Sequence record: KY963424
From: Shigella phage SSP1
DNA: 64,000 nt
Reading direction: 5' to 3' (one strand)
Of this stretch, positions 38,850-63,263 are shown one piece after another; the stretch's first letter is position 1, and the number at the start of each line of letters is the position of its first letter. A program made the position numbers and the translations under genes. The notes beneath the pieces are model-generated. The model was not told the DNA's origin, did not search any database, and worked only from the letters and a program-made list of their open reading frames with translations.

Positions 38850-40369
38850 ATATCGCTGGCCTGTTCACCTGTTGAATTTTCAGCTTTGTCTTTCTTAGCA
38901 CGTTTAGGTTGAGCCGGCTTATCCTTCTCAATAGGGATAACGAACTCAGCTTCCATTTGAGATATATCTTCCATTGCTAGGTTGGTAGTGTTATCCATTC
39001 GCAGAGTTTCCCAGTTCATTTTAGGCATAAACTTCACGCTATCAGAAGAACGAGTCTTAACGAAGTCAAACATAATAGCACCTTGACCATTATCAGCTTT
39101 TGCAGCATTAAGATTAGCAGCCATGTCTGCGGAATCAAGAATCCCCTTTGACATACGTGTTCTACCATCTTGATCGATCTGGTAAGGAGCTACACCAGCC
39201 ACGTTATGTTTCTGGCAGATAGATTTGAAAGACGAGCTGACAACCATCTGTTCTTTCCAGTCATACATATCAATGGTTTTAGAGTCTGGAAGTCGGGTTT
39301 GGTTAATATAGTCCAGTAAAGCTACTGTAACTTTATCACCATATCTAGCAACTAATTTATTTAGTTCTACGTCAACTGTTGTAATGGACAGTTCAGGATC
39401 ATAAACAATAATCATAGGAGTATGTAGCTCATACCCTTCTATTAGTTTACTCTCCATATCGTAGAAATCACTCATCTTAGCCATTGTGTACTGTTTAACG
39501 AAGCTATCGAAAAGCTCTTCACCACCATTAAACATTCTAGCTCTAGTTCTGGCTAATCTCAACAGAGCTGCACCTTCTAGAGTATTATTACGCATTGCTA
39601 GTGCTGATACACCTGCTAACATGGCTAAATTACGCCTAAATACTTCATGTTCTTTCATCTCAATTGAGAAGTATGGAGCAATATCCCCATTCAAATATTG
39701 CTGAACCTGTATGTTTGAACAGATAATGGATTTACCAGTACCACGCCAACCACCAAGCAGTAACGTTTCTGTGCGAGCTAAACCAATTTGAGCGTCGAAC
39801 TCATTACAAATACCAAGAGCGATTAAGTTCAGTTTGGTATCTTCTTCTCTCTGGAAAATACGCATGTTATCTGCGTTGAATACTTTTCCAGTATTCGTTA
39901 CTTTCTCTTCTAATTTTAAGTGAAGGGAGGCAACTCGGTTGAGAATTTCTCCCTGATCCAGCATTGTTAAATCTTGAAGCACGTCTGTTTCTAGAAGCTT
40001 CAGGAATAAATCCTGTGTATATTCGGCTTCTAGGACTTCAAGTGCCTGTTCCATGCTCACTTCTGGAATTTGAGTGTTAGCTAAGACGACTAGAGCTTGA
40101 GAAAGGCGGGCGTTCCTATTAGCTTCAAGCATAAGTGCGTCAATGGACGGCATTGTGTTATATTTTTTATAATAATTCTGGACGGCTTGGTAAATTGAGG
40201 AGAAAGCGTCATTAAAATGATCTTTATGCAGTTTTGAGAATGTTTCCAATGCTATTTGCTTCTGTTCGGAAGCTAGAAGCATCTTCAACACTACAGCTTG
40301 CACGTTAAACAAGGTCATTCTCCTTTGCACGCTTTCGTGCCTTCTAAATGCAAAAAGGGGAAGGAGCAT
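38846..40369 (-). CDS. Replicative DNA helicase (DnaB-like)
   Basis: Walker A GGWRGTGKS, H1a FSIEM, Walker B VALLDYINQ, H4-like APYQIDQDGR. Start ambiguous: ATG 40367-40369 (inside a hairpin loop, preceded by GGGGAGG) or ATG 40316-40318. Confidence 0.7.
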   Translation of the reverse strand: MLLPLFAFRRHESVQRRMTLFNVQAVVLKMLLASEQKQIALETFSKLHKDHFNDAFSSIYQAVQNYYKKYNTMPSIDALMLEANRNARLSQALVVLANTQIPEVSMEQALEVLEAEYTQDLFLKLLETDVLQDLTMLDQGEILNRVASLHLKLEEKVTNTGKVFNADNMRIFQREEDTKLNLIALGICNEFDAQIGLARTETLLLGGWRGTGKSIICSNIQVQQYLNGDIAPYFSIEMKEHEVFRRNLAMLAGVSALAMRNNTLEGAALLRLARTRARMFNGGEELFDSFVKQYTMAKMSDFYDMESKLIEGYELHTPMIIVYDPELSITTVDVELNKLVARYGDKVTVALLDYINQTRLPDSKTIDMYDWKEQMVVSSSFKSICQKHNVAGVAPYQIDQDGRTRMSKGILDSADMAANLNAAKADNGQGAIMFDFVKTRSSDSVKFMPKMNWETLRMDNTTNLAMEDISQMEAEFVIPIEKDKPAQPKRAKKDKAENSTGEQASDI

Positions 40370-45548: not shown

Positions 45549-45577
45549 ATTATACAGAAAAATTTTCCTGAAAGCAA
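45549..45577 (-). promoter_or_regulatory. Strong sigma70 early promoter (closely resembles classical T5 promoters)
   Basis: - strand reads AAAAATTTATTTGCTTTCAGGAAAATTTTTCTGTATAATAGATTCATAAATTTGAGAGAGGAG: TTGCTT - 17 bp - TATAAT, A/T-rich UP element, strong SD. Confidence 0.75.
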
Positions 45578-58407: not shown

Positions 58408-59553
58408 ATGACTACTTTACTAAACCTGAACTGGGATCATACTAACGCTGACCTTTTCCTGGGAGATTCTCTCGGTATCGCAGATTATGTACGTGTAGCA
58501 CATCCAGAACTAGAACGTCTGGCACTTCTGCAACGCTCTCAATTTTGGACTGAAACTGAAATCAGTCTGGAAGCAGATAAGAAACAATGGCCTAATCTCC
58601 CGCGTGAAATTCAGGAAATTACACTCCTGAACTTAGCATGGCAGACTCAAACAGATTCCTTTATCAGTCGTGCTCCTGAAGCAGCTATTATGCCGCTTGT
58701 AAGTCGTCCAGAATTGGAAGGTATGCTCAAGCAGTGGAGCTACTTCGAAGATCTACATAGTCGTGCTTATAGCAATATTATTCGTAATGTGCTAACTGAT
58801 CCAGCAGAATTTATTGATTCTGTAACCAAAAACCAAGAAGCATTCGCACGCATCGCTGATTCTGTTGAACTATTCGATGAACTGTACCAGTTAGGTCAGT
58901 ATTTCATCGCAGTACGCGATCATCGTGGCGACAATACATATCCAGAAACTGAGTTCCCTGAAGTTAAACGTGAAACTCAGGCTAAACTATTAGACGCTTA
59001 CTTTGCGATCTATGGTCTGGAAGCAATGCAGTTTTACGCATCCTTTGCATGTACCTTTGCATTAGCAGAGAACGATATTCTGCAAGGTATTGCTAAAAAT
59101 CTGCAATTAATCGCTAAAGATGAAGCTCTGCACACTCAGATGTCCAAAGCAATCATCCAGATTATGTTCCAGCAGTTTGACAAAGACCTGGTGGATGAAG
59201 CAGTGGCTAAAGCACCAGCACAGCTCCTGAAAACTCTGAAAACTGAAATTGAATGGGGTCACTTCATTTTCAAAGGTCGTAGTCTGATTGGCTTGAATGC
59301 AGAACTTCTAGAAGAATATCTGTACTTTGTGGGGCGTAATGCATTTATGCACATCGGTGTAGAATGGCCAAGTAACCTGCCGGTAATCACCAAGAACCCT
59401 ATTCCATGGATCATGAACTGGTTGGATACCACTTCTTTACAGCCTGCTCCACAAGAAATCCAGATTGGTGCAGCATATCGTGTAGGTCAGGTAACTGAGA
59501 CCTCTACTGATACTCTGAAAGATCTGGGCAATGAATTTGGAGATTTCTTATGA
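58408..59553 (+). CDS. nrdB: Ribonucleoside-diphosphate reductase beta subunit (class Ia)
   Basis: 381 aa; ferritin-like fold with di-iron ligand pattern (E ... H) and radical tyrosine region; immediately followed by frd with 4-nt overlap. Confidence 0.9.
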   Translation: MTTLLNLNWDHTNADLFLGDSLGIADYVRVAHPELERLALLQRSQFWTETEISLEADKKQWPNLPREIQEITLLNLAWQTQTDSFISRAPEAAIMPLVSRPELEGMLKQWSYFEDLHSRAYSNIIRNVLTDPAEFIDSVTKNQEAFARIADSVELFDELYQLGQYFIAVRDHRGDNTYPETEFPEVKRETQAKLLDAYFAIYGLEAMQFYASFACTFALAENDILQGIAKNLQLIAKDEALHTQMSKAIIQIMFQQFDKDLVDEAVAKAPAQLLKTLKTEIEWGHFIFKGRSLIGLNAELLEEYLYFVGRNAFMHIGVEWPSNLPVITKNPIPWIMNWLDTTSLQPAPQEIQIGAAYRVGQVTETSTDTLKDLGNEFGDFL

Positions 59554-60083
59554 TAACGGCATTATATGCAGTTGGGCCGAATGGGGAGTTCGGCCTCCGA
59601 GGTAAACTCCCCTGGGGTTCCTTCAAAGAAGAACTAGATGCTTTCTACTCTCAACTGGACGTGTTGAACCCAGATAACATCATCATTGGTGCGGGCACTT
59701 ATTTAGCACTTCCAGAAGTTGTTCGGCAACGTATGATTGGAGAATCTGACCTCTTTATTCGTGCGGATCGTCCTCTGCCTGATGATATTAAACATGGTAT
59801 TTACACTCCAATTTCTAAGATTGGGGATACATTACCTACGTTCTTAAAAGATCAACAGACAGTGGTTTTAGGTGGTGCAACATTACTGTACGAAATGTAT
59901 ATTCATGGACATATTGAAAGTGCTTTTGTATCAACAATCTTTAGTAATCAAAAACTAGAGGCAGATGTACATCTGGATAATATGATTCTAGATTACAACT
60001 ATGAATCTACTCGTTTAGTTTACGCAACTGGCGCAAACAGTGATAACAGCCTGCGATTTGTACAGGAATTGGTTACTTATTAA
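59550..60083 (+). CDS. frd: Dihydrofolate reductase
   Basis: 177 aa; N-terminal MITALYAVGPNGEFG ... LPW pattern typical of DHFR; sits between nrdB and thyA. Confidence 0.8.
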   Translation: MITALYAVGPNGEFGLRGKLPWGSFKEELDAFYSQLDVLNPDNIIIGAGTYLALPEVVRQRMIGESDLFIRADRPLPDDIKHGIYTPISKIGDTLPTFLKDQQTVVLGGATLLYEMYIHGHIESAFVSTIFSNQKLEADVHLDNMILDYNYESTRLVYATGANSDNSLRFVQELVTY

Positions 60084-60922
60084 TGCAACAATATTTAAAA
60101 ATTCTAACAGATGTAATTCTACTAGGTGAACCACGTAACGATCGTACAGGAACAGGCACAGTTTCAATTTTTGATTCCTATGCTAAGTTCGACCTACGTG
60201 AAGGATTCCCTGCCGTAACCACTAAACGTCTAGCTTGGAAATCGGTAGTTGGAGAACTCTTATGGTTTTTATCTGGATCTACAAATCTCCATGATCTGCG
60301 AGTATTCACATTTGGGCGTGACGAAGGACAGTGGACTATCTGGACTCCAAATTATGAAGACCAAGCCATAAGCATGGGTTATGACAGGGGTAATCTGGGG
60401 CCAGTATATGGTAAACAATGGCGCAACTTTGGTGGACGAGATCAGATCCTAGAACTCATTGAGGGTCTTAAGAATAATCCACATGGTCGTAGACACCTAG
60501 TATCTGCATGGAACGTTGCCGAACTAGATAAGATGGCACTACCACCATGTCACTATGGTTTCCAGTGTTACGTAAGTAATGATGGATACTTAGATCTTAA
60601 ATGGACACAACGTTCTGTAGACTGTTTTCTAGGTCTGCCTTTTAATATTGCTAGCTATGCTTTATTAACACATATCCTGGCAAAACTGACTGGATTAAAA
60701 CCTCGTTATCTCATCTTTAGTGGTGGAGATACACATATTTACAGTGATCATATAGAGCAAGTAGAGGAGCAAATGAAACGTAAACCACGTCCTTTGCCAA
60801 CTCTAGTAATGCCAGAGTTTGTAGATCTCTATGATTTATTAGAGAATAATACTGCGGCTTGGTCCTTCCAACTTGAAGGATATGATCCACATCCCGCTCT
60901 TAAAGCTAAAATGTCCTCTTAA
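60083..60922 (+). CDS. thyA: Thymidylate synthase
   Basis: 279 aa; catalytic LPPCHYGFQCYV motif and folate-binding residues. Confidence 0.9.
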   Translation: MQQYLKILTDVILLGEPRNDRTGTGTVSIFDSYAKFDLREGFPAVTTKRLAWKSVVGELLWFLSGSTNLHDLRVFTFGRDEGQWTIWTPNYEDQAISMGYDRGNLGPVYGKQWRNFGGRDQILELIEGLKNNPHGRRHLVSAWNVAELDKMALPPCHYGFQCYVSNDGYLDLKWTQRSVDCFLGLPFNIASYALLTHILAKLTGLKPRYLIFSGGDTHIYSDHIEQVEEQMKRKPRPLPTLVMPEFVDLYDLLENNTAAWSFQLEGYDPHPALKAKMSS

Positions 60923-60929
60923 CTTAAGT

Positions 60930-60944
60930 AGCCCTTCGGGGCTA
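60930..60944 (+). terminator. Short GC hairpin after thyA (weak terminator)
   Basis: AGCCC-TTCG-GGGCT hairpin followed by A/T-rich sequence without a clean U-tract. Confidence 0.3.
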
Positions 60945-60962
60945 TTATATTTGAAATTGTAC

Positions 60963-60992
60963 TTGCTTATTAAGTACAATTTCAAATATAAT
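60963..60992 (+). promoter_or_regulatory. sigma70 early promoter embedded in a 22-bp perfect inverted repeat
   Basis: TTGCTT - 18 bp - TATAAT; arms of the inverted repeat at 60943-60964 and 60972-60993. Confidence 0.6.
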
Positions 60993-61021
60993 ATACTCAA
61001 TAAGTACAAAAGGATAATAAA

Positions 61022-61405
61022 ATGAGTAAAGAAATTGAATTAGAACAAGCCCTTCTGAATTACTCCAATTACTTGCAGGGTGATAAAGAAACTATTACTA
61101 AGGAACAGGTATTATTAATACTAGACTCTATCACTTCTAAATTCAGGACTTTAGAAGACTACTACTCTGTAGGCAATGGAGATGAGAAGGTAGAGTTATG
61201 TCTAAATCTCCTAGAAGATATGGGTTGGGATGAGGAAGATCAAGTAGGGTATTTAGGTATATCTACAGAAATTCTAGAAAATACAGAGCATGAAAATATA
61301 CTTGAAGTAAAGAGCAGAAGTGCTATTCGATATAATACTTATGGTACAGGTATTACAGGAATAAAAGCATTACTTAGTATAGACATAGGATGGTTAGATG
61401 AGTAA
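61022..61405 (+). CDS. Hypothetical acidic protein
   Basis: 127-aa ORF downstream of the palindromic promoter. Confidence 0.45.
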   Translation: MSKEIELEQALLNYSNYLQGDKETITKEQVLLILDSITSKFRTLEDYYSVGNGDEKVELCLNLLEDMGWDEEDQVGYLGISTEILENTEHENILEVKSRSAIRYNTYGTGITGIKALLSIDIGWLDE

Positions 61406-61946
61406 AAAGTTACCTAGCCAAGAAAGATTAAAAGAAATACTAATCTATGATCCAGATACTGGTATATTTACTAATAAGGTAAGTCGTGGTAGGGGAGGAA
61501 AAGCAGGTTCGCCAGCTGGATACCTAAGAAAAGATGGCTATATAACTATTAAGATAGATAAAATAGATTATTTAGCGCATAGGTTAGCCTTTCTATACAT
61601 GACAGGATCAATACCTGATTTAATAGACCACAAAAATAGAATTAGGTCAGATAATAGGTGGATAAATCTAAGAGAAGCTACAAGCCAGTCTAATAACAGA
61701 AATTGTACCGCATCGAGTAAATCTGGATATCTAGGTGTACACTGGAACAAACAACTACAGAAATGGCAAGTACAGGTGATTGATAATAATGGTAAAAATA
61801 TTTACGGGGGTGTTTTTGATTACTTAGACCTAGAAAGTGCGGTCATAAAGGCTAATGAACTAAGAAAAACACTTCATGGTAGCGAAGCAGTTATAGAAGA
61901 TTTCTATACCAACTATTACCCACCAATAGAGGAACTTAATAAGTGA
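61398..61946 (+). CDS. HNH homing endonuclease with AP2-type DNA-binding domain
   Basis: 182 aa; HNH_3-type motif (HRLAFLYMTGSIPDLIDHKNRIRSDNRWINLREATSQSNNRN) followed by AP2-like segment (GYLGVHWNKQLQKWQVQVIDNNGKNIYGGVFDYLDLESA). Confidence 0.7.
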   Translation: MSKKLPSQERLKEILIYDPDTGIFTNKVSRGRGGKAGSPAGYLRKDGYITIKIDKIDYLAHRLAFLYMTGSIPDLIDHKNRIRSDNRWINLREATSQSNNRNCTASSKSGYLGVHWNKQLQKWQVQVIDNNGKNIYGGVFDYLDLESAVIKANELRKTLHGSEAVIEDFYTNYYPPIEELNK

Positions 61947-62419
61947 GCGTTTTCCACATTTACACAGATGGTGCTTGTAAGTCTAACCCAGGTCCAGGTG
62001 CTTGGGGTTTTATTGTTTATGATGATAACGACGATCGTTTAGGTTCTAAATCTGGTTATAATCCTAAAACTACAAATAATGAGATGGAACTCACAGCTAT
62101 TGTAGAAGCTTTACGTTGGTCTGTTAAAAAAGATAATAGACCAATTGCTATCTATACTGACTCTGCTTATTGCAAAAATGGCATGGAAAGTTGGATGTTT
62201 TCTTGGCAAAGGAAAGGCTGGAAGAAAGCAGATGGTGAAGTTCCTCTTAATCTAGAACTTTGGCAGGAAGCATTTAAATTAACACAGCAGTATATCAACT
62301 TTCATAATACTAATCCTACCTTTATTAAGGTTAAAGGACATTCTGGTATTAGTGGTAATGAAGCTGTAGATGCATTGTGTAATACTGTTATTACTGAAGC
62401 TGAAATGGCTGAGATGTAA
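61943..62419 (+). CDS. rnh: Ribonuclease H
   Basis: 158 aa; RNase HI pattern (IYTDGACKSNPGPGAWG ... NNEMELTA ... IYTDS ... KGHSG ... NE.VD.L). Confidence 0.85.
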   Translation: MSVFHIYTDGACKSNPGPGAWGFIVYDDNDDRLGSKSGYNPKTTNNEMELTAIVEALRWSVKKDNRPIAIYTDSAYCKNGMESWMFSWQRKGWKKADGEVPLNLELWQEAFKLTQQYINFHNTNPTFIKVKGHSGISGNEAVDALCNTVITEAEMAEM

Positions 62420-62439: not shown

Positions 62440-62468
62440 TTGCTTAAAGCCCTCTAATTTAGTATAAT
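62440..62468 (+). promoter_or_regulatory. sigma70 early promoter
   Basis: AAATTAAAAATTCACTTGCTT: TTGCTT - 17 bp - TATAAT, then GAGGAGGG SD. Confidence 0.65.
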
Positions 62469-62495
62469 ATTCGTATTGAAAGTGAGGAGGGCTTT

Positions 62496-62780
62496 ATGCG
62501 GATTTATAACTCAAATTCATTAGGATTTAAGCCATTGAGAAAACGTGCACAATCACCTCGTCAAATAAGAAAGGCTAATATTGGTGAGCCAGAAACACGT
62601 CTTCCACCTCCTCCAGAGCAACGTTTAGTTTATCTGGACGAAGAGTTAGCTGAACGCGAAAGAAAAGCTCAAGAAGAGATTGAGCGTAAGAAAATGTGTA
62701 CTGCTCCAGCCTACTCCAAAGGGGCTTATCAGTATATCTATACAGCCGAGGAGGCTAAAGATGCGGGGCGTAAAAAATGA
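62496..62780 (+). CDS. Hypothetical protein
   Basis: 94-aa ORF with strong SD. Confidence 0.45.
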   Translation: MRIYNSNSLGFKPLRKRAQSPRQIRKANIGEPETRLPPPPEQRLVYLDEELAERERKAQEEIERKKMCTAPAYSKGAYQYIYTAEEAKDAGRKK

Positions 62781-63234: not shown

Positions 63235-63263
63235 TTGCTAAACGCTTCAAATTCTCGTATAAT
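63235..63263 (+). promoter_or_regulatory. sigma70 early promoter
   Basis: AAATTAAAAATTCATTTGCTA: TTGCTA - 17 bp - TATAAT. Confidence 0.65.

What the first reader, a model, noticed from the sequence alone, without database searches (positions are those of the whole stretch)
60943..60993. 22-bp perfect inverted repeat wrapped around an early promoter
TATTATATTTGAAATTGTACTT (60943-60964) and its exact reverse complement AAGTACAATTTCAAATATAATA (60972-60993) flank a 7-bp spacer. The -35 (TTGCTT) sits at the centre and the -10 (TATAAT) inside the right arm. A 51-bp palindrome of this quality is unlikely by chance even in AT-rich DNA. It could be an operator for a dimeric regulator, a cruciform-prone element, or (in read-through RNA from thyA) an RNase III-type processing hairpin. 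A further AAGTACAA copy lies at about 61003-61010.
Basis: seen in the sequence. Interest (0 to 1): 0.55.

Follow-up and report, generated by a model that had tools for sequence, protein, structure and literature searches.

The report
Conserved hairpin enclosing a T5 early promoter
A perfect 22-base inverted repeat encloses the promoter between the thymidylate synthase and RNase H genes of a T5-like phage, and evolution has preserved its base pairing across many genera of the phage family, so it is most likely a hairpin that forms in read-through RNA rather than a protein binding site.

Summary
Arms 60943-60964 and 60972-60993 are exact complements around a 7-nt spacer. It is by far the longest hairpin in the window.

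The repeat encloses a predicted T5-type early promoter (-35 TTGCTT 60963-60968, 18-bp spacer, -10 TATAAT 60987-60992). T5 records annotate the homologous site as a putative early promoter, T5P27. The repeat directly follows a GC-rich terminator hairpin after thyA.

The new result is comparative. The same geometry (-35 at the hairpin tip, 3' arm ending one base past the -10) recurs at the promoter of the rnh operon in Tequintavirus, Epseptimavirus, Priunavirus, Novosibvirus, Sugarlandvirus, Thalassavirus and the AAS21/KEY lineage. The arm sequences differ, with compensatory substitutions and matched indels. A second locus, after a PnuC-like gene, has the same layout in Epseptimavirus.

No half-site is conserved, so an operator is unlikely. 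In AAS21/KEY the stem holds only through five G·U pairs on the sense strand. It is significant as sense RNA, but not as antisense RNA or as DNA. I therefore favour a sense-RNA hairpin that is complete only in transcripts reading through the thyA terminator, acting in processing, stabilisation or back-up termination (about 0.5). Rivals are a cruciform (about 0.15) and a mutational by-product (about 0.12). The function is untested.

The parts
60928..60945 (+). GC-rich terminator-type hairpin T1 directly after the thyA stop codon (60920-60922). Core stem AGCCC/GGGCT at 60930-60934 and 60939-60943, UUCG loop. Its T-rich tail ATTATATTT is the start of the 5' arm of the palindrome.
   Evidence: The RNA fold gives a 7-bp stem; the hairpin alone is -10.4 kcal/mol. 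The homologous site is annotated as a rho-independent terminator (ARNold) in BF23. The tool's own simple terminator scan did not list it. It is conserved in all Tequintavirus and Epseptimavirus relatives inspected.
60943..60964 (+). 5' arm of the palindrome, TATTATATTTGAAATTGTACTT. It is at once the terminator tail and the A/T-rich region upstream of the promoter (about -57 to -36).
   Evidence: The upstream motif AAATTGTAcTTGCT matches other T5-type promoters in the window.
60965..60971 (+). Apical loop GCTTATT. Together with TT 60963-60964 it holds the -35 hexamer TTGCTT (60963-60968).
   Evidence: The -35 sits at the tip in every genus examined.
60972..60993 (+). 3' arm AAGTACAATTTCAAATATAATA, which is the promoter spacer plus the -10 hexamer TATAAT (60987-60992) plus one base.
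   Evidence: In most lineages the arm ends one base after the -10; in KpGranit and AAS21/KEY it ends within or at the -10.
60999..61000 (+). Predicted transcription start of the promoter, inferred as 7-8 nt after the -10. Transcripts that start here contain none of the hairpin.
   Evidence: Inference from sigma-70 promoter geometry and similarity to PH207 and PN25. Not mapped experimentally.
61002..61021 (+). Leader of the downstream cassette: the AAGTACAA copy (61002-61009) and the ribosome-binding site AAGGA (61010-61014), ahead of the ATG at 61022. This is context, not part of the hairpin.
   Evidence: The leader travels with the cassette, not with the arm type (BF23).

Best explanation
The palindrome is a cis-acting stem-loop maintained by selection on base pairing, laid over the early promoter of the rnh operon (T5P27 in T5). 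I estimate about 0.8 that pairing itself is under selection.

The most likely active form is the sense-strand RNA. RNA polymerase that fails to stop at the GC-rich terminator after thyA transcribes the whole promoter region. That region then folds into a 20-23 bp A/U-rich helix stacked directly on the terminator hairpin.

The 5' arm lies at and after the termination point, and the 3' arm ends about 6 nt before the promoter's own start site. So the complete hairpin exists only in read-through RNA. It is absent from correctly terminated thyA mRNA and from promoter-initiated rnh mRNA.

In read-through RNA it would act as a post-terminator insulator. It could be a double-stranded target for RNase III-type processing, a barrier to 3' exonucleases, or a back-up termination hairpin. 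Any of these would uncouple the fate of the upstream and downstream messages.

Shown here: the structure, its conservation and covariation, its fixed register with the promoter, and sense-strand-only pairing in one lineage. Inferred: read-through, the RNA being the active form, and the downstream consequence (cleavage, stabilisation or termination).
For: 1. The structure is real and exceptional. Twenty-four other promoter-like sites in the window have only 3-8 nt of comparable complementarity.

2. The terminator plus palindrome module matches 423 phage records at 80% identity or more. It is kept when the upstream gene changes (membrane protein, homing endonuclease) and when the downstream cassette changes.

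3. Covariation within Tequintavirus and Epseptimavirus: 19 haplotypes, 97% of cells paired against 34-54% when the partner column is slid, 3 pairs changed on both sides, and 0 of 500 shuffles reaching the covariation score. Three arm types differ by matched indels in both arms. G·U intermediates are seen next to their compensated forms (T5 to DT57-1/2; NBSal005 to NR01).

4. The same geometry occurs with unrelated arm sequences:
- Priunavirus PSTCR5, 17/17 pairs
- Novosibvirus PM135, 16-19 bp
- Sugarlandvirus KpGranit, 16 bp
- Thalassavirus River4 and Cilsick, 14 bp
- AAS21/KEY, 22 bp
Complementarity within a genome is 0.81-1.00, against a cross-genome mean of 0.66.

5. A second locus, from a PnuC-like gene to a small ORF or tRNA-Ser, has the same terminator plus 17-18 bp perfect enclosing hairpin. 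It shows a compensatory A:T to T:A swap between phages. In the 50-kb early region of BSP22A the two modules are the two longest hairpins.

6. Strand test. In AAS21 the stem needs five G·U pairs on the sense strand. As sense RNA it folds at -15.7 kcal/mol, z = -5.5, with 0 of 200 shuffles as good. As antisense RNA it gives -4.5, z = -1.6. As DNA it gives -2.5 and -1.8, z = -0.9 and -0.4. KEY differs inside the stem by one base, which turns AAS21's only C·A mismatch into U-A. Among 13 rnh-promoter representatives, sense RNA is the more stable form by more than 1 kcal/mol in 9 and antisense in 1.

7. The terminator tail is a poor U-tract (ATTATATTT) compared with other terminator-promoter junctions in the window (TTTTTCTTT at about 58330 and about 43370). 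Read-through is therefore plausible.
Against: There is no direct evidence that polymerase reads through the terminator or that the RNA is cleaved. No T5 transcript-end data were found.

In most lineages the stem is purely Watson-Crick with very few G·U pairs. That is unusual for a long-lived RNA helix, and it fits a DNA-level or mutational origin equally well.

Within Tequintavirus and Epseptimavirus my hand count of mismatch events is at least 12 G·T against 7 A·C on the sense strand. This is not significantly asymmetric, and the count partly favours G·T near the tip.

The register is locked to promoter elements (tip at the -35, base at the -10), which an RNA role does not require. In Thalassavirus the terminator lies 28 nt away from the hairpin.

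One Sugarlandvirus (vB_Kpn_3) has swapped the right half for a PN25-like promoter and lost the pairing, so the hairpin is dispensable there.

The sequence after the hairpin is not consistently U-rich, which weakens the back-up terminator variant.
Confidence: 0.5

Rival explanations
1. DNA cruciform. Under negative supercoiling, for example that generated behind polymerases leaving this strong promoter, the A/T-rich repeat extrudes as a cruciform. This takes up the -35, spacer and -10 and shuts the promoter, so its output becomes sensitive to topology or limits itself.
For: Perfect Watson-Crick arms of 16-22 bp with small loops in most lineages. Both DNA strands of the window 51-mer fold about equally well: -17.7 and -17.6 kcal/mol, z below -11. 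The register is tied to the promoter, with the tip at the -35 and the base at the -10, and this holds even where the terminator is not adjacent (River4). Precedent exists for cruciforms repressing bacterial promoters: the Vibrio exsBA locus (PMC10325908), and from my own recollection Horwitz and Loeb 1988.
Against: In AAS21/KEY the homologous stem cannot form in DNA: z = -0.9 and -0.4, and the antisense strand would carry five A·C mismatches. T5 has two G·T positions in its arms. Loops of 12-16 nt in PSTCR5, PM135 and the second locus raise the cost of extrusion. T5 DNA is linear and enters the cell nicked (PMC10644984), so sustained supercoiling is uncertain. Other equally strong early promoters lack the repeat.
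Confidence: 0.15
2. Mutational by-product. T5-type early promoters carry self-complementary A(n)T(n) blocks both upstream of the -35 and in the spacer. Intrastrand template switching at such quasi-palindromes repeatedly extends and re-perfects the repeat. The pairing would then be maintained by mutation bias, not by function.
For: The promoter consensus contains built-in complementarity: upstream AAAATTT and spacer AAATTTT. Partial enclosing repeats of 11-12 nt occur at other promoters. Long ones appear sporadically; the tRNA promoter is enclosed in some phages but not in T5 P15b. Arms are mostly perfect Watson-Crick. One lineage lost the pairing without obvious harm. Quasi-palindrome correction is an established mutational mechanism (my own knowledge).
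Against: The repeat is retained at the same promoter with the same outer boundary in seven or more lineages, across thymidylate synthases that are only about 50% identical. It costs the terminator a good U-tract. AAS21/KEY keeps a G·U-rich stem that templated correction would have made perfect. Palindromes are also prone to deletion, yet 423 records keep this one.
Confidence: 0.12
3. Operator. A dimeric phage or host DNA-binding protein recognises the two half-sites and represses or activates the promoter.
For: Twofold symmetry centred on the promoter is the classic operator layout. The sequence is highly conserved within Tequintavirus and Epseptimavirus.
Against: No half-site is conserved between genera beyond TATAATA and its complement, while pairing is kept. 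Arm length (16-22 bp) and loop length (5-16 nt) vary, so half-site spacing is not kept. Matched indels preserve pairing, not spacing. Arm types A, B and C are mixed among near-identical phages and among different downstream cassettes. The small ORFs next to the site have no recognisable DNA-binding domain. No site-specific regulator of T5 early promoters is described in the papers read.
Confidence: 0.05
4. Single-strand DNA hairpin signal. When the region becomes single-stranded, by replication or by gapping from the nicked strand, the template strand folds so that the spacer and -10 are duplex again. This would give a hairpin promoter or priming site, in the manner of Frpo or the M13 minus-strand origin.
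For: The nicks annotated in T5 lie on the coding strand of these genes (the nick feature and thy/rnh are on the same strand of the record). The intact strand is therefore the template strand. The palindrome would rebuild a duplex -10. The gene downstream is RNase H.
Against: The -35 would sit in the loop, unlike known single-strand promoters, where both hexamers are duplex (my own knowledge). The template-strand hairpin is the weaker one in most lineages and is absent in AAS21/KEY. There is no evidence that this region becomes single-stranded.
Confidence: 0.04

Closest known systems
PeSL (promoter-early stem-loop) terminator/promoter cassettes of T4-like phages (Arbiol et al. 2010, PMC2839356; Comeau et al. 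2014, PMC4122927)
   Same: A GC stem-loop sits immediately upstream of an A/T-rich sigma-70 early promoter with a Shine-Dalgarno sequence and start codon. The cassettes lie between small variable ORFs and at the borders of indels and replacements. Here, homology between phages breaks exactly at 60920 and 60995, and a promoter half has been swapped in vB_Kpn_3.
   Different: As described, PeSLs have only the short stem-loop upstream of the promoter. They have no second long hairpin that pairs the upstream region with the spacer and -10. PeSLs number in the dozens per genome, whereas only one or two enclosed promoters per genome were found here. The phage family is also different.
RNase III processing hairpins in phage polycistronic early mRNA (T7 R0.3-R1.3; lambda N leader and sib); from my own knowledge
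   Same: Intergenic helices of about 20 bp in read-through or polycistronic early RNA made by host polymerase. They separate cistrons and leave a protective 3' hairpin. The helix here is A/U-rich with few G-C pairs.
   Different: T7 sites have conserved internal loops and are not overlaid on promoters. Here the stem is fully paired, cleavage is untested, and stems in some genera are only 14-17 bp long.
Translational masking by read-through-specific hairpins with an internal promoter (T4 lysozyme gene e, I-TevI); from my own knowledge
   Same: The logic is the same. A hairpin is complete only in transcripts coming from upstream, because the internal promoter starts inside or after it. The two transcript classes therefore behave differently.
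   Different: In T4 the 3' arm covers the ribosome-binding site. Here the 3' arm ends before the start site and the ribosome-binding site (61010-61014) stays free. The neighbouring promoter at 62440 does look like the T4 type (see the observations made in passing).
Cruciform-controlled promoters (Vibrio parahaemolyticus exsBA, PMC10325908; Horwitz and Loeb 1988 synthetic promoter, from my own knowledge)
   Same: An inverted repeat overlaps the promoter elements, so extrusion would hide them.
   Different: Those cases rest on nuclease and chemical probing of supercoiled DNA, which has not been done here. The AAS21/KEY homologue cannot form a DNA hairpin.
Hairpin promoters on DNA (phage N4 virion RNA polymerase promoters, PMC4496689; Frpo and M13 single-strand promoters, from my own knowledge)
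   Same: Promoter sequences lie within an inverted repeat in a phage genome.
   Different: N4 uses 5-7 bp stems read by its own polymerase. Frpo and M13 have both hexamers in the duplex stem. Here the host sigma-70 enzyme is used and the -35 is in the loop.

Membership tests
T5-type sigma-70 early promoter | A -35 of TTGCT(T/A), a 17-18 bp spacer and a -10 of TATAAT | tested here: met
   TTGCTT 60963-60968, an 18-bp spacer, TATAAT 60987-60992. The pattern is the same as PN25, PH207 and eight others in the window.
T5-type sigma-70 early promoter | A/T-rich upstream block and an ATATT-type discriminator (Klimuk et al. 2020, PMC7472727) | tested here: met
   The upstream sequence GAAATTGTAC matches class members. 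The discriminator is ATACT in the window and ATATT in T5 and type-B relatives.
T5-type sigma-70 early promoter | A mapped transcription start or RNA polymerase binding | not testable with these tools
   Only predicted annotations exist: AY543070, AY587007 'putative early promoter T5P27', and BF23 by Sigma70Pred.
Intrinsic (rho-independent) terminator (hairpin T1) | A GC-rich stem-loop followed by a U-rich tract | tested here: inconclusive
   A 5-7 bp stem with four G-C pairs and a UUCG loop, -10.4 kcal/mol. The tail AUUAUAUUU has 6 U in 9. ARNold calls the homologue in BF23, but the simple scan here did not list it.
PeSL-type terminator/promoter cassette | A stem-loop just upstream of an early sigma-70 promoter with a Shine-Dalgarno sequence and start codon, at borders of gene replacement | tested here: met
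   T1, promoter, AAGGA and ATG are all present. Breakpoints lie at 60920 and 60995, and relatives carry different cassettes.
PeSL-type terminator/promoter cassette | Many dispersed, near-identical copies per genome that mediate shuffling | tested here: not met
   The window holds a single copy. The 50-kb early region of BSP22A holds two.
Operator of a dimeric DNA-binding regulator | A conserved half-site sequence at fixed spacing | tested here: not met
   The arms differ between genera while pairing is kept. Arm length is 14-22 nt and loop length 5-16 nt.
Operator of a dimeric DNA-binding regulator | An identified cognate protein | not tested
   The adjacent small ORFs have no Pfam domain and fall in PHROG families of unknown function. 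No wider search for a regulator was made.
RNase III processing site | About two helical turns of double-stranded RNA in a transcript that is actually made | tested here: inconclusive
   A 22-23 bp helix is predicted in the window and in T5 and 14-19 bp helices elsewhere. The existence of read-through RNA has not been shown.
RNase III processing site | Cleavage that depends on RNase III | not testable with these tools
   No data on T5 and RNase III were found.
Cruciform-regulated promoter | An inverted repeat able to form hairpins on both DNA strands | tested here: inconclusive
   Met in the window and in T5. Not met in AAS21, where the DNA z-scores are -0.9 and -0.4.
Cruciform-regulated promoter | Supercoil-dependent extrusion and an effect on transcription | not testable with these tools
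   This needs nuclease or chemical probing and topology-controlled transcription assays.
Curated RNA family (Rfam 15) | A match reaching the family's gathering score | tested here: not met
   Only generic hairpin matches to miRNA-precursor models, at most 27 bits against gathering scores of 54-195.

The most novel reading that the evidence does not exclude
The hairpin acts at the DNA level. The promoter of the rnh operon, and a second promoter in Epseptimavirus, would be gated by its own secondary structure. Either it extrudes as a cruciform when local negative supercoiling builds up, or it refolds on the intact template strand once the nicked coding strand has been resected. That would make it a structure-switched host-polymerase promoter conserved across a virus family.
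Probability: 0.15. Interest if true: 0.8.

Novelty: new variant of a known kind. Interest (0 to 1): 0.6.

Why it matters
T5 promoters are classic tools (PN25 drives the pQE expression vectors), yet how T5-like phages insulate and time their many early transcription units is still unclear.

This element shows that a terminator-promoter junction can carry a third layer of information. It is a helix built from the promoter's own flanks, kept by compensatory evolution across most Demerecviridae genera sampled. By its geometry it can exist only in RNA that has escaped the terminator.

If it is an RNase III or decay signal, it would be a compact fail-safe insulator. Such a device would be useful for synthetic operon design and for annotating phage genomes; one record currently labels it a terminator and others only a promoter. 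If instead it works as DNA, it would be one of very few natural structure-switched sigma-70 promoters.

Either way the question is directly testable with arm mutants and compensatory mutants.

Tried and rejected
1. A second genomic copy. The '2 places per record' is the palindrome matching itself on the opposite strand. It is not another copy.

2. The third AAGTACAA at 61002-61009 as part of the element. Rejected: it travels with the downstream cassette and persists in BF23, whose arms lack GTAC.

3. A general property of T5 early promoters. Rejected: 24 other promoter-like sites in the window have 3-8 nt of comparable complementarity, and 13 other annotated T5 promoters lack the enclosing hairpin.

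4. A divergent antisense promoter using the mirrored TATAAT. The scan lists TTAATA-18-TATAAT on the minus strand, but no -35 is conserved on that strand in other genera (my inspection of the sequences), and it would not explain pairing of the inner arm.

5. Rfam. Nothing above threshold.

6. A metagenome pattern scan to enlarge the sample. It returned mostly unrelated hits and about nine T5-like contigs. It was useful only because it revealed the second locus.

7. A G·T versus A·C count within Tequintavirus and Epseptimavirus as a strand test. At least 12 against 7, not decisive.

8. A nick site, which T5 annotates by a GCGC consensus. No GCGC occurs in or next to the palindrome.

9. The small downstream ORFs as candidate regulators. 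No domain was found.

10. A literature search for T5 transcript ends, RNase III processing, or any description of this palindrome. Nothing was found.
Full report
**What is there**

The window comes from a T5-like phage. The best match is Escherichia phage Lindwurm at 98% identity, and 125 Tequintavirus and Epseptimavirus records match 60700-61300. It also contains recognisable classic T5 promoters: PN25 on the minus strand near 45577 and PH207 at 63235.

Gene order around the finding is as follows:
- nrdB, 58408-59553
- frd, 59550-60083
- thyA, 60083-60922
- an ORF of unknown function, 61022-61405
- an HNH homing endonuclease, 61398-61946
- rnh, 61943-62419

In the 99-nt gap after thyA there is first a GC-rich hairpin (AGCCC-UUCG-GGGCU, 60930-60943).

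**Check of the observation**

The repeat is exact. It is the longest close-range inverted repeat in the window. It does not recur elsewhere even with three mismatches, and shuffles never produce it. It folds far better than shuffled sequence both as RNA (z about -8) and as DNA (z about -12).

TTGCTT (60963-60968) straddles the end of the left arm and the loop. TATAAT (60987-60992) is the penultimate part of the right arm, and the spacing is 18 bp. The additional AAGTACAA is at 61002-61009.

**Is it a promoter?**

By sequence it belongs to the T5 early class: TTGCTT, 17-18 bp, TATAAT, an A/T-rich upstream block and an ATA(C/T)T discriminator. The homologous site is annotated as a promoter in AY543070, as 'putative early promoter T5P27' in AY587007, and as a Sigma70Pred promoter preceded by an ARNold terminator in BF23. 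Lindwurm's annotators instead labelled the palindrome itself a terminator. All of these are predictions; I found no mapping data.

**Comparative anatomy, the main result**

The terminator plus palindrome module (60920-61003) matches 423 phage records at 80% identity or more. It stays in place when a membrane-protein gene or a homing endonuclease is inserted between thyA and the module. It also stays when the downstream cassette differs, or is absent as in T5. Megablast homology between phages breaks exactly at 60920 and at 60995, the two ends of the module.

From about 90 loci I collected 19 distinct haplotypes in Tequintavirus and Epseptimavirus. There are three arm types:
- Type A: GAAATTGTACTT / AAGTACAATTTC
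- Type B: AAATTTCA / TGAAATTT
- Type C: AAAATTTCA / TGAAATTTT

They differ by substitutions on both sides and by matched one-base indels in both arms, so pairing is always restored. On a MAFFT alignment, 97% of cells form standard pairs, against 34-54% when the partner column is slid. Three pairs show changes on both sides, and none of 500 shuffles reaches the observed covariation score. G·U intermediates and their compensated descendants both exist: T5 GTAC/GTAT becomes DT57-1/2 ATAC/GTAT, and NBSal005 GTAT/GTAC becomes NR01 GTAT/ATAC.

Outside these genera the arms are unrelated in sequence but the layout is the same:

| Phage (genus) | 5' arm | Loop | 3' arm |
|---|---|---|---|
| Providencia phage PSTCR5 (Priunavirus) | TATTATATAATAAAATT | ACTTGCTTAATTACAC | AATTTTATTATATAATA |
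| Proteus phage PM135 (Novosibvirus) | TATTATCTCAAATATT | TTAGTTGACATCTTGTAG | AATATTTGAGATAATA |
| Klebsiella phage KpGranit (Sugarlandvirus) | TTATATTAAAAATTCA | TTTGCAAACCACG | TGAATTTTTAATATAA |
| Vibrio phages River4 and Cilsick (Thalassavirus) | TGTTATATAAAAAT | (contains TTGCTA) | ATTTTTATATAATA |
| Pantoea AAS21 and Erwinia KEY | 22 pairs in all | | |

In every case the -35 is at the tip. In most lineages the 3' arm ends one base after the -10; in KpGranit and AAS21/KEY it ends within or at the -10. In most cases the 5' arm starts at the foot of a GC terminator hairpin. In Thalassavirus the upstream gene is nrdG and the terminator lies 28 nt further upstream.

Weaker or different arrangements occur in four phages:
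- Ceto: the same register, with internal loops and three G·U pairs.
- pVp-1: weak pairing.
- Vibrio phage phi 3: the -35 pairs with the -10.
- Vibrio phage D135: a single GC hairpin that itself contains the -35.

One Sugarlandvirus, vB_Kpn_3, keeps the terminator and the left arm but has a PN25-like right half, so the pairing is lost.

**A second locus**

In Epseptimavirus and some Tequintavirus genomes, the junction between a PnuC-like transporter gene and a small ORF or tRNA-Ser has the same design. A GC terminator is followed at once by a 17-18 bp perfect enclosing hairpin:

TATTATACAGAAATTTTC | ACTTGCTTAATATA | GAAAATTTCTGTATAATA

Different phages show an A:T to T:A compensatory swap here. 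In the 50-kb early region of phage BSP22A, this module and the thy-rnh module are the two longest hairpins. T5's own tRNA promoter P15b is not enclosed in this way.

**What this excludes**

The feature is not general to T5 promoters. Twenty-four other promoter-like sites in the window have at most 8 nt of comparable complementarity, and 13 other annotated T5 promoters lack it.

It is not a sequence-specific operator. No half-site is conserved, arm and loop lengths vary, and arm types are shuffled among near-identical phages and cassettes.

It matches no Rfam family. The neighbouring small ORFs give no hint of a regulator.

What evolution keeps is base pairing, so the working form should be a folded single strand.

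**RNA or DNA?**

For the window and most lineages the two strands fold equally well, so they cannot decide the question.

Within Tequintavirus and Epseptimavirus I count at least 12 mismatch events that are G·T on the sense strand against 7 that are A·C. This leans towards RNA but is not significant, and part of the count is biased towards G·T near the tip.

The informative case is the AAS21/KEY lineage. There the 22-pair stem contains five G·U pairs on the sense strand.

| Form of the AAS21 stem | Energy (kcal/mol) | z-score | Shuffles as good |
|---|---|---|---|
| Sense RNA | -15.7 | -5.5 | 0 of 200 |
| Antisense RNA | -4.5 | -1.6 | 15 of 200 |
| DNA, sense strand | -2.5 | -0.9 | 39 of 200 |
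| DNA, antisense strand | -1.8 | -0.4 | 57 of 200 |

The single difference between KEY and AAS21 inside the stem turns AAS21's only C·A mismatch into a U-A pair. Among 13 representatives of the rnh promoter, the sense RNA is more stable by more than 1 kcal/mol in 9 and the antisense in 1. T5 itself has two sense-strand G·U positions, and its sense RNA is 8 kcal/mol more stable than the antisense.

This shifts the balance to a sense-strand RNA structure. It rests mainly on one lineage and on energy models.

**How it would work (inference)**

Transcripts from this promoter start about 6-7 nt after the 3' arm, so they never contain the hairpin. thyA transcripts that stop at T1 end inside the 5' arm. 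Only polymerases that run through T1 make both arms.

T1's tail (AUUAUAUUU) is a poorer U-tract than those of other terminator-promoter junctions in the window (UUUUUCUUU), so read-through should be appreciable.

The resulting 20-23 bp A/U helix is stacked on the T1 hairpin and so marks read-through RNA specifically. The plausible consequences are RNase III-type cleavage that separates the nrd-frd-thy message from the rnh message, a block to 3' exonucleases that preserves the upstream message, or a second weak termination hairpin. In many haplotypes the sequence after the hairpin is U-rich, but not in the window.

Placing the hairpin between the termination point and the start site also explains why it must be built from promoter sequence. 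It explains why its outer edge coincides with the -10 and the terminator tail.

**Rivals**

- A cruciform that hides the promoter remains possible for the perfect palindromes of T5-like phages. It fits the strict promoter register, but it fails in AAS21/KEY and is physically uncertain on nicked linear T5 DNA (about 0.15).
- Maintenance by templated quasi-palindrome mutation, seeded by the self-complementary A(n)T(n) blocks of the promoter consensus, could mimic covariation. It fits the sporadic occurrence at other promoters and the loss in vB_Kpn_3. It does not easily explain family-wide retention at one promoter or the G·U-rich stem (about 0.12).
- An operator (about 0.05).
- A single-strand DNA promoter or priming signal (about 0.04).

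**Comparison with known systems**

The GC stem-loop plus early promoter plus ribosome-binding site at cassette borders works like the PeSL cassettes of T4-like phages. However, it is present in one or two copies rather than dozens, and PeSLs as described have no helix enclosing the promoter.

The read-through-specific logic resembles T4 gene e and I-TevI, and the helix resembles T7 or lambda RNase III sites (my own knowledge), but neither membership can be tested here.

I found no description of this palindrome in the T5 and BF23 papers I could read.

**Verdict**

The feature is real and strongly non-random, and its structure is conserved across most of the Demerecviridae genera sampled. It is best read as an RNA hairpin specific to terminator read-through and overlaid on a predicted early promoter. 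The mechanism is inferred, not shown.

Noticed in passing
window 62442-62454 and 62487-62499: A 13-nt inverted repeat (GCTTAAAGCCCTC / GAGGGCTTTATGC, 92%) links the -35 and spacer of the next early promoter (TTGCTT at 62440) to the ribosome-binding site and ATG of ORF 62496-62780. The identical arrangement folds in T5 (promoter 'u3'). In RNA reading through from rnh, the ribosome-binding site would be sequestered, while transcripts from the promoter would lack the 5' arm. This is the layout of T4 gene e and I-TevI translational masking.
   Followed up: partly
window 60920 and 60995; cassette 61022-61946: Homology between T5-like phages breaks exactly at the two ends of the terminator-promoter module. 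The downstream cassette here (a 127-aa ORF of unknown function plus an HNH endonuclease) is replaced by other small ORFs in relatives and is absent in T5. The module therefore sits at a mosaic junction.
   Followed up: partly
L372-L375; L214:11790-11900; BSP22A record position about 38960-39050: A second terminator plus promoter-enclosing hairpin (17-18 bp, perfect) lies between a PnuC-like transporter gene and a small ORF or tRNA-Ser in Epseptimavirus and some Tequintavirus genomes. No counterpart was seen in this window.
   Followed up: yes
window about 45577 (-), 44569 (-), 63235 (+): Matches to what I recall as the classic T5 promoters PN25 and PH207, and a probable P26, are present. The PH207 match agrees with the 'P-H 207' annotation in AY543070. 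They identify the window as the early region of a T5-like genome.
   Followed up: no
L284:2525-2599 (T5 promoter P14a); BSP22A record position about 37063: A 13-14 bp GC-containing hairpin (GCACTGAGCAAGT ... ACTTGCTCAGTGC) has the -35 hexamer inside its 3' arm. Vibrio phage D135 (L379, about 855-885) has a terminator-like hairpin with a UUCG loop that contains the -35 of the promoter after thyA. Overlapping terminator hairpins with the next promoter seems to be a recurring way of compacting these genomes.
   Followed up: no
L377:930-1000 (Klebsiella phage vB_Kpn_3): The terminator and left arm are as in KpGranit, but from the -35 onward the sequence is the same as the window's PN25-type promoter over about 56 nt (TTTGCTTTCAGGAAAATTTTTCTGTATAATAGATTCATAAATTTGAGAGAGG). 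This looks like recombination inside a promoter, and it destroys the hairpin.
   Followed up: no
window 60949-60978 and 60979-61008: A tandem direct repeat of 30 nt at 70% identity overlaps the palindrome and the leader. It probably reflects the repeated AAGTACA and ATTT(G/C)AAAT motifs and has no comparative support.
   Followed up: partly
BSP22A record position about 20600 and 37426 (L376): Shorter promoter-enclosing repeats of 11-12 nt occur at two other early promoters. They may reflect the self-complementary A(n)T(n) blocks of the T5 promoter consensus, from which longer enclosing hairpins could grow.
   Followed up: no
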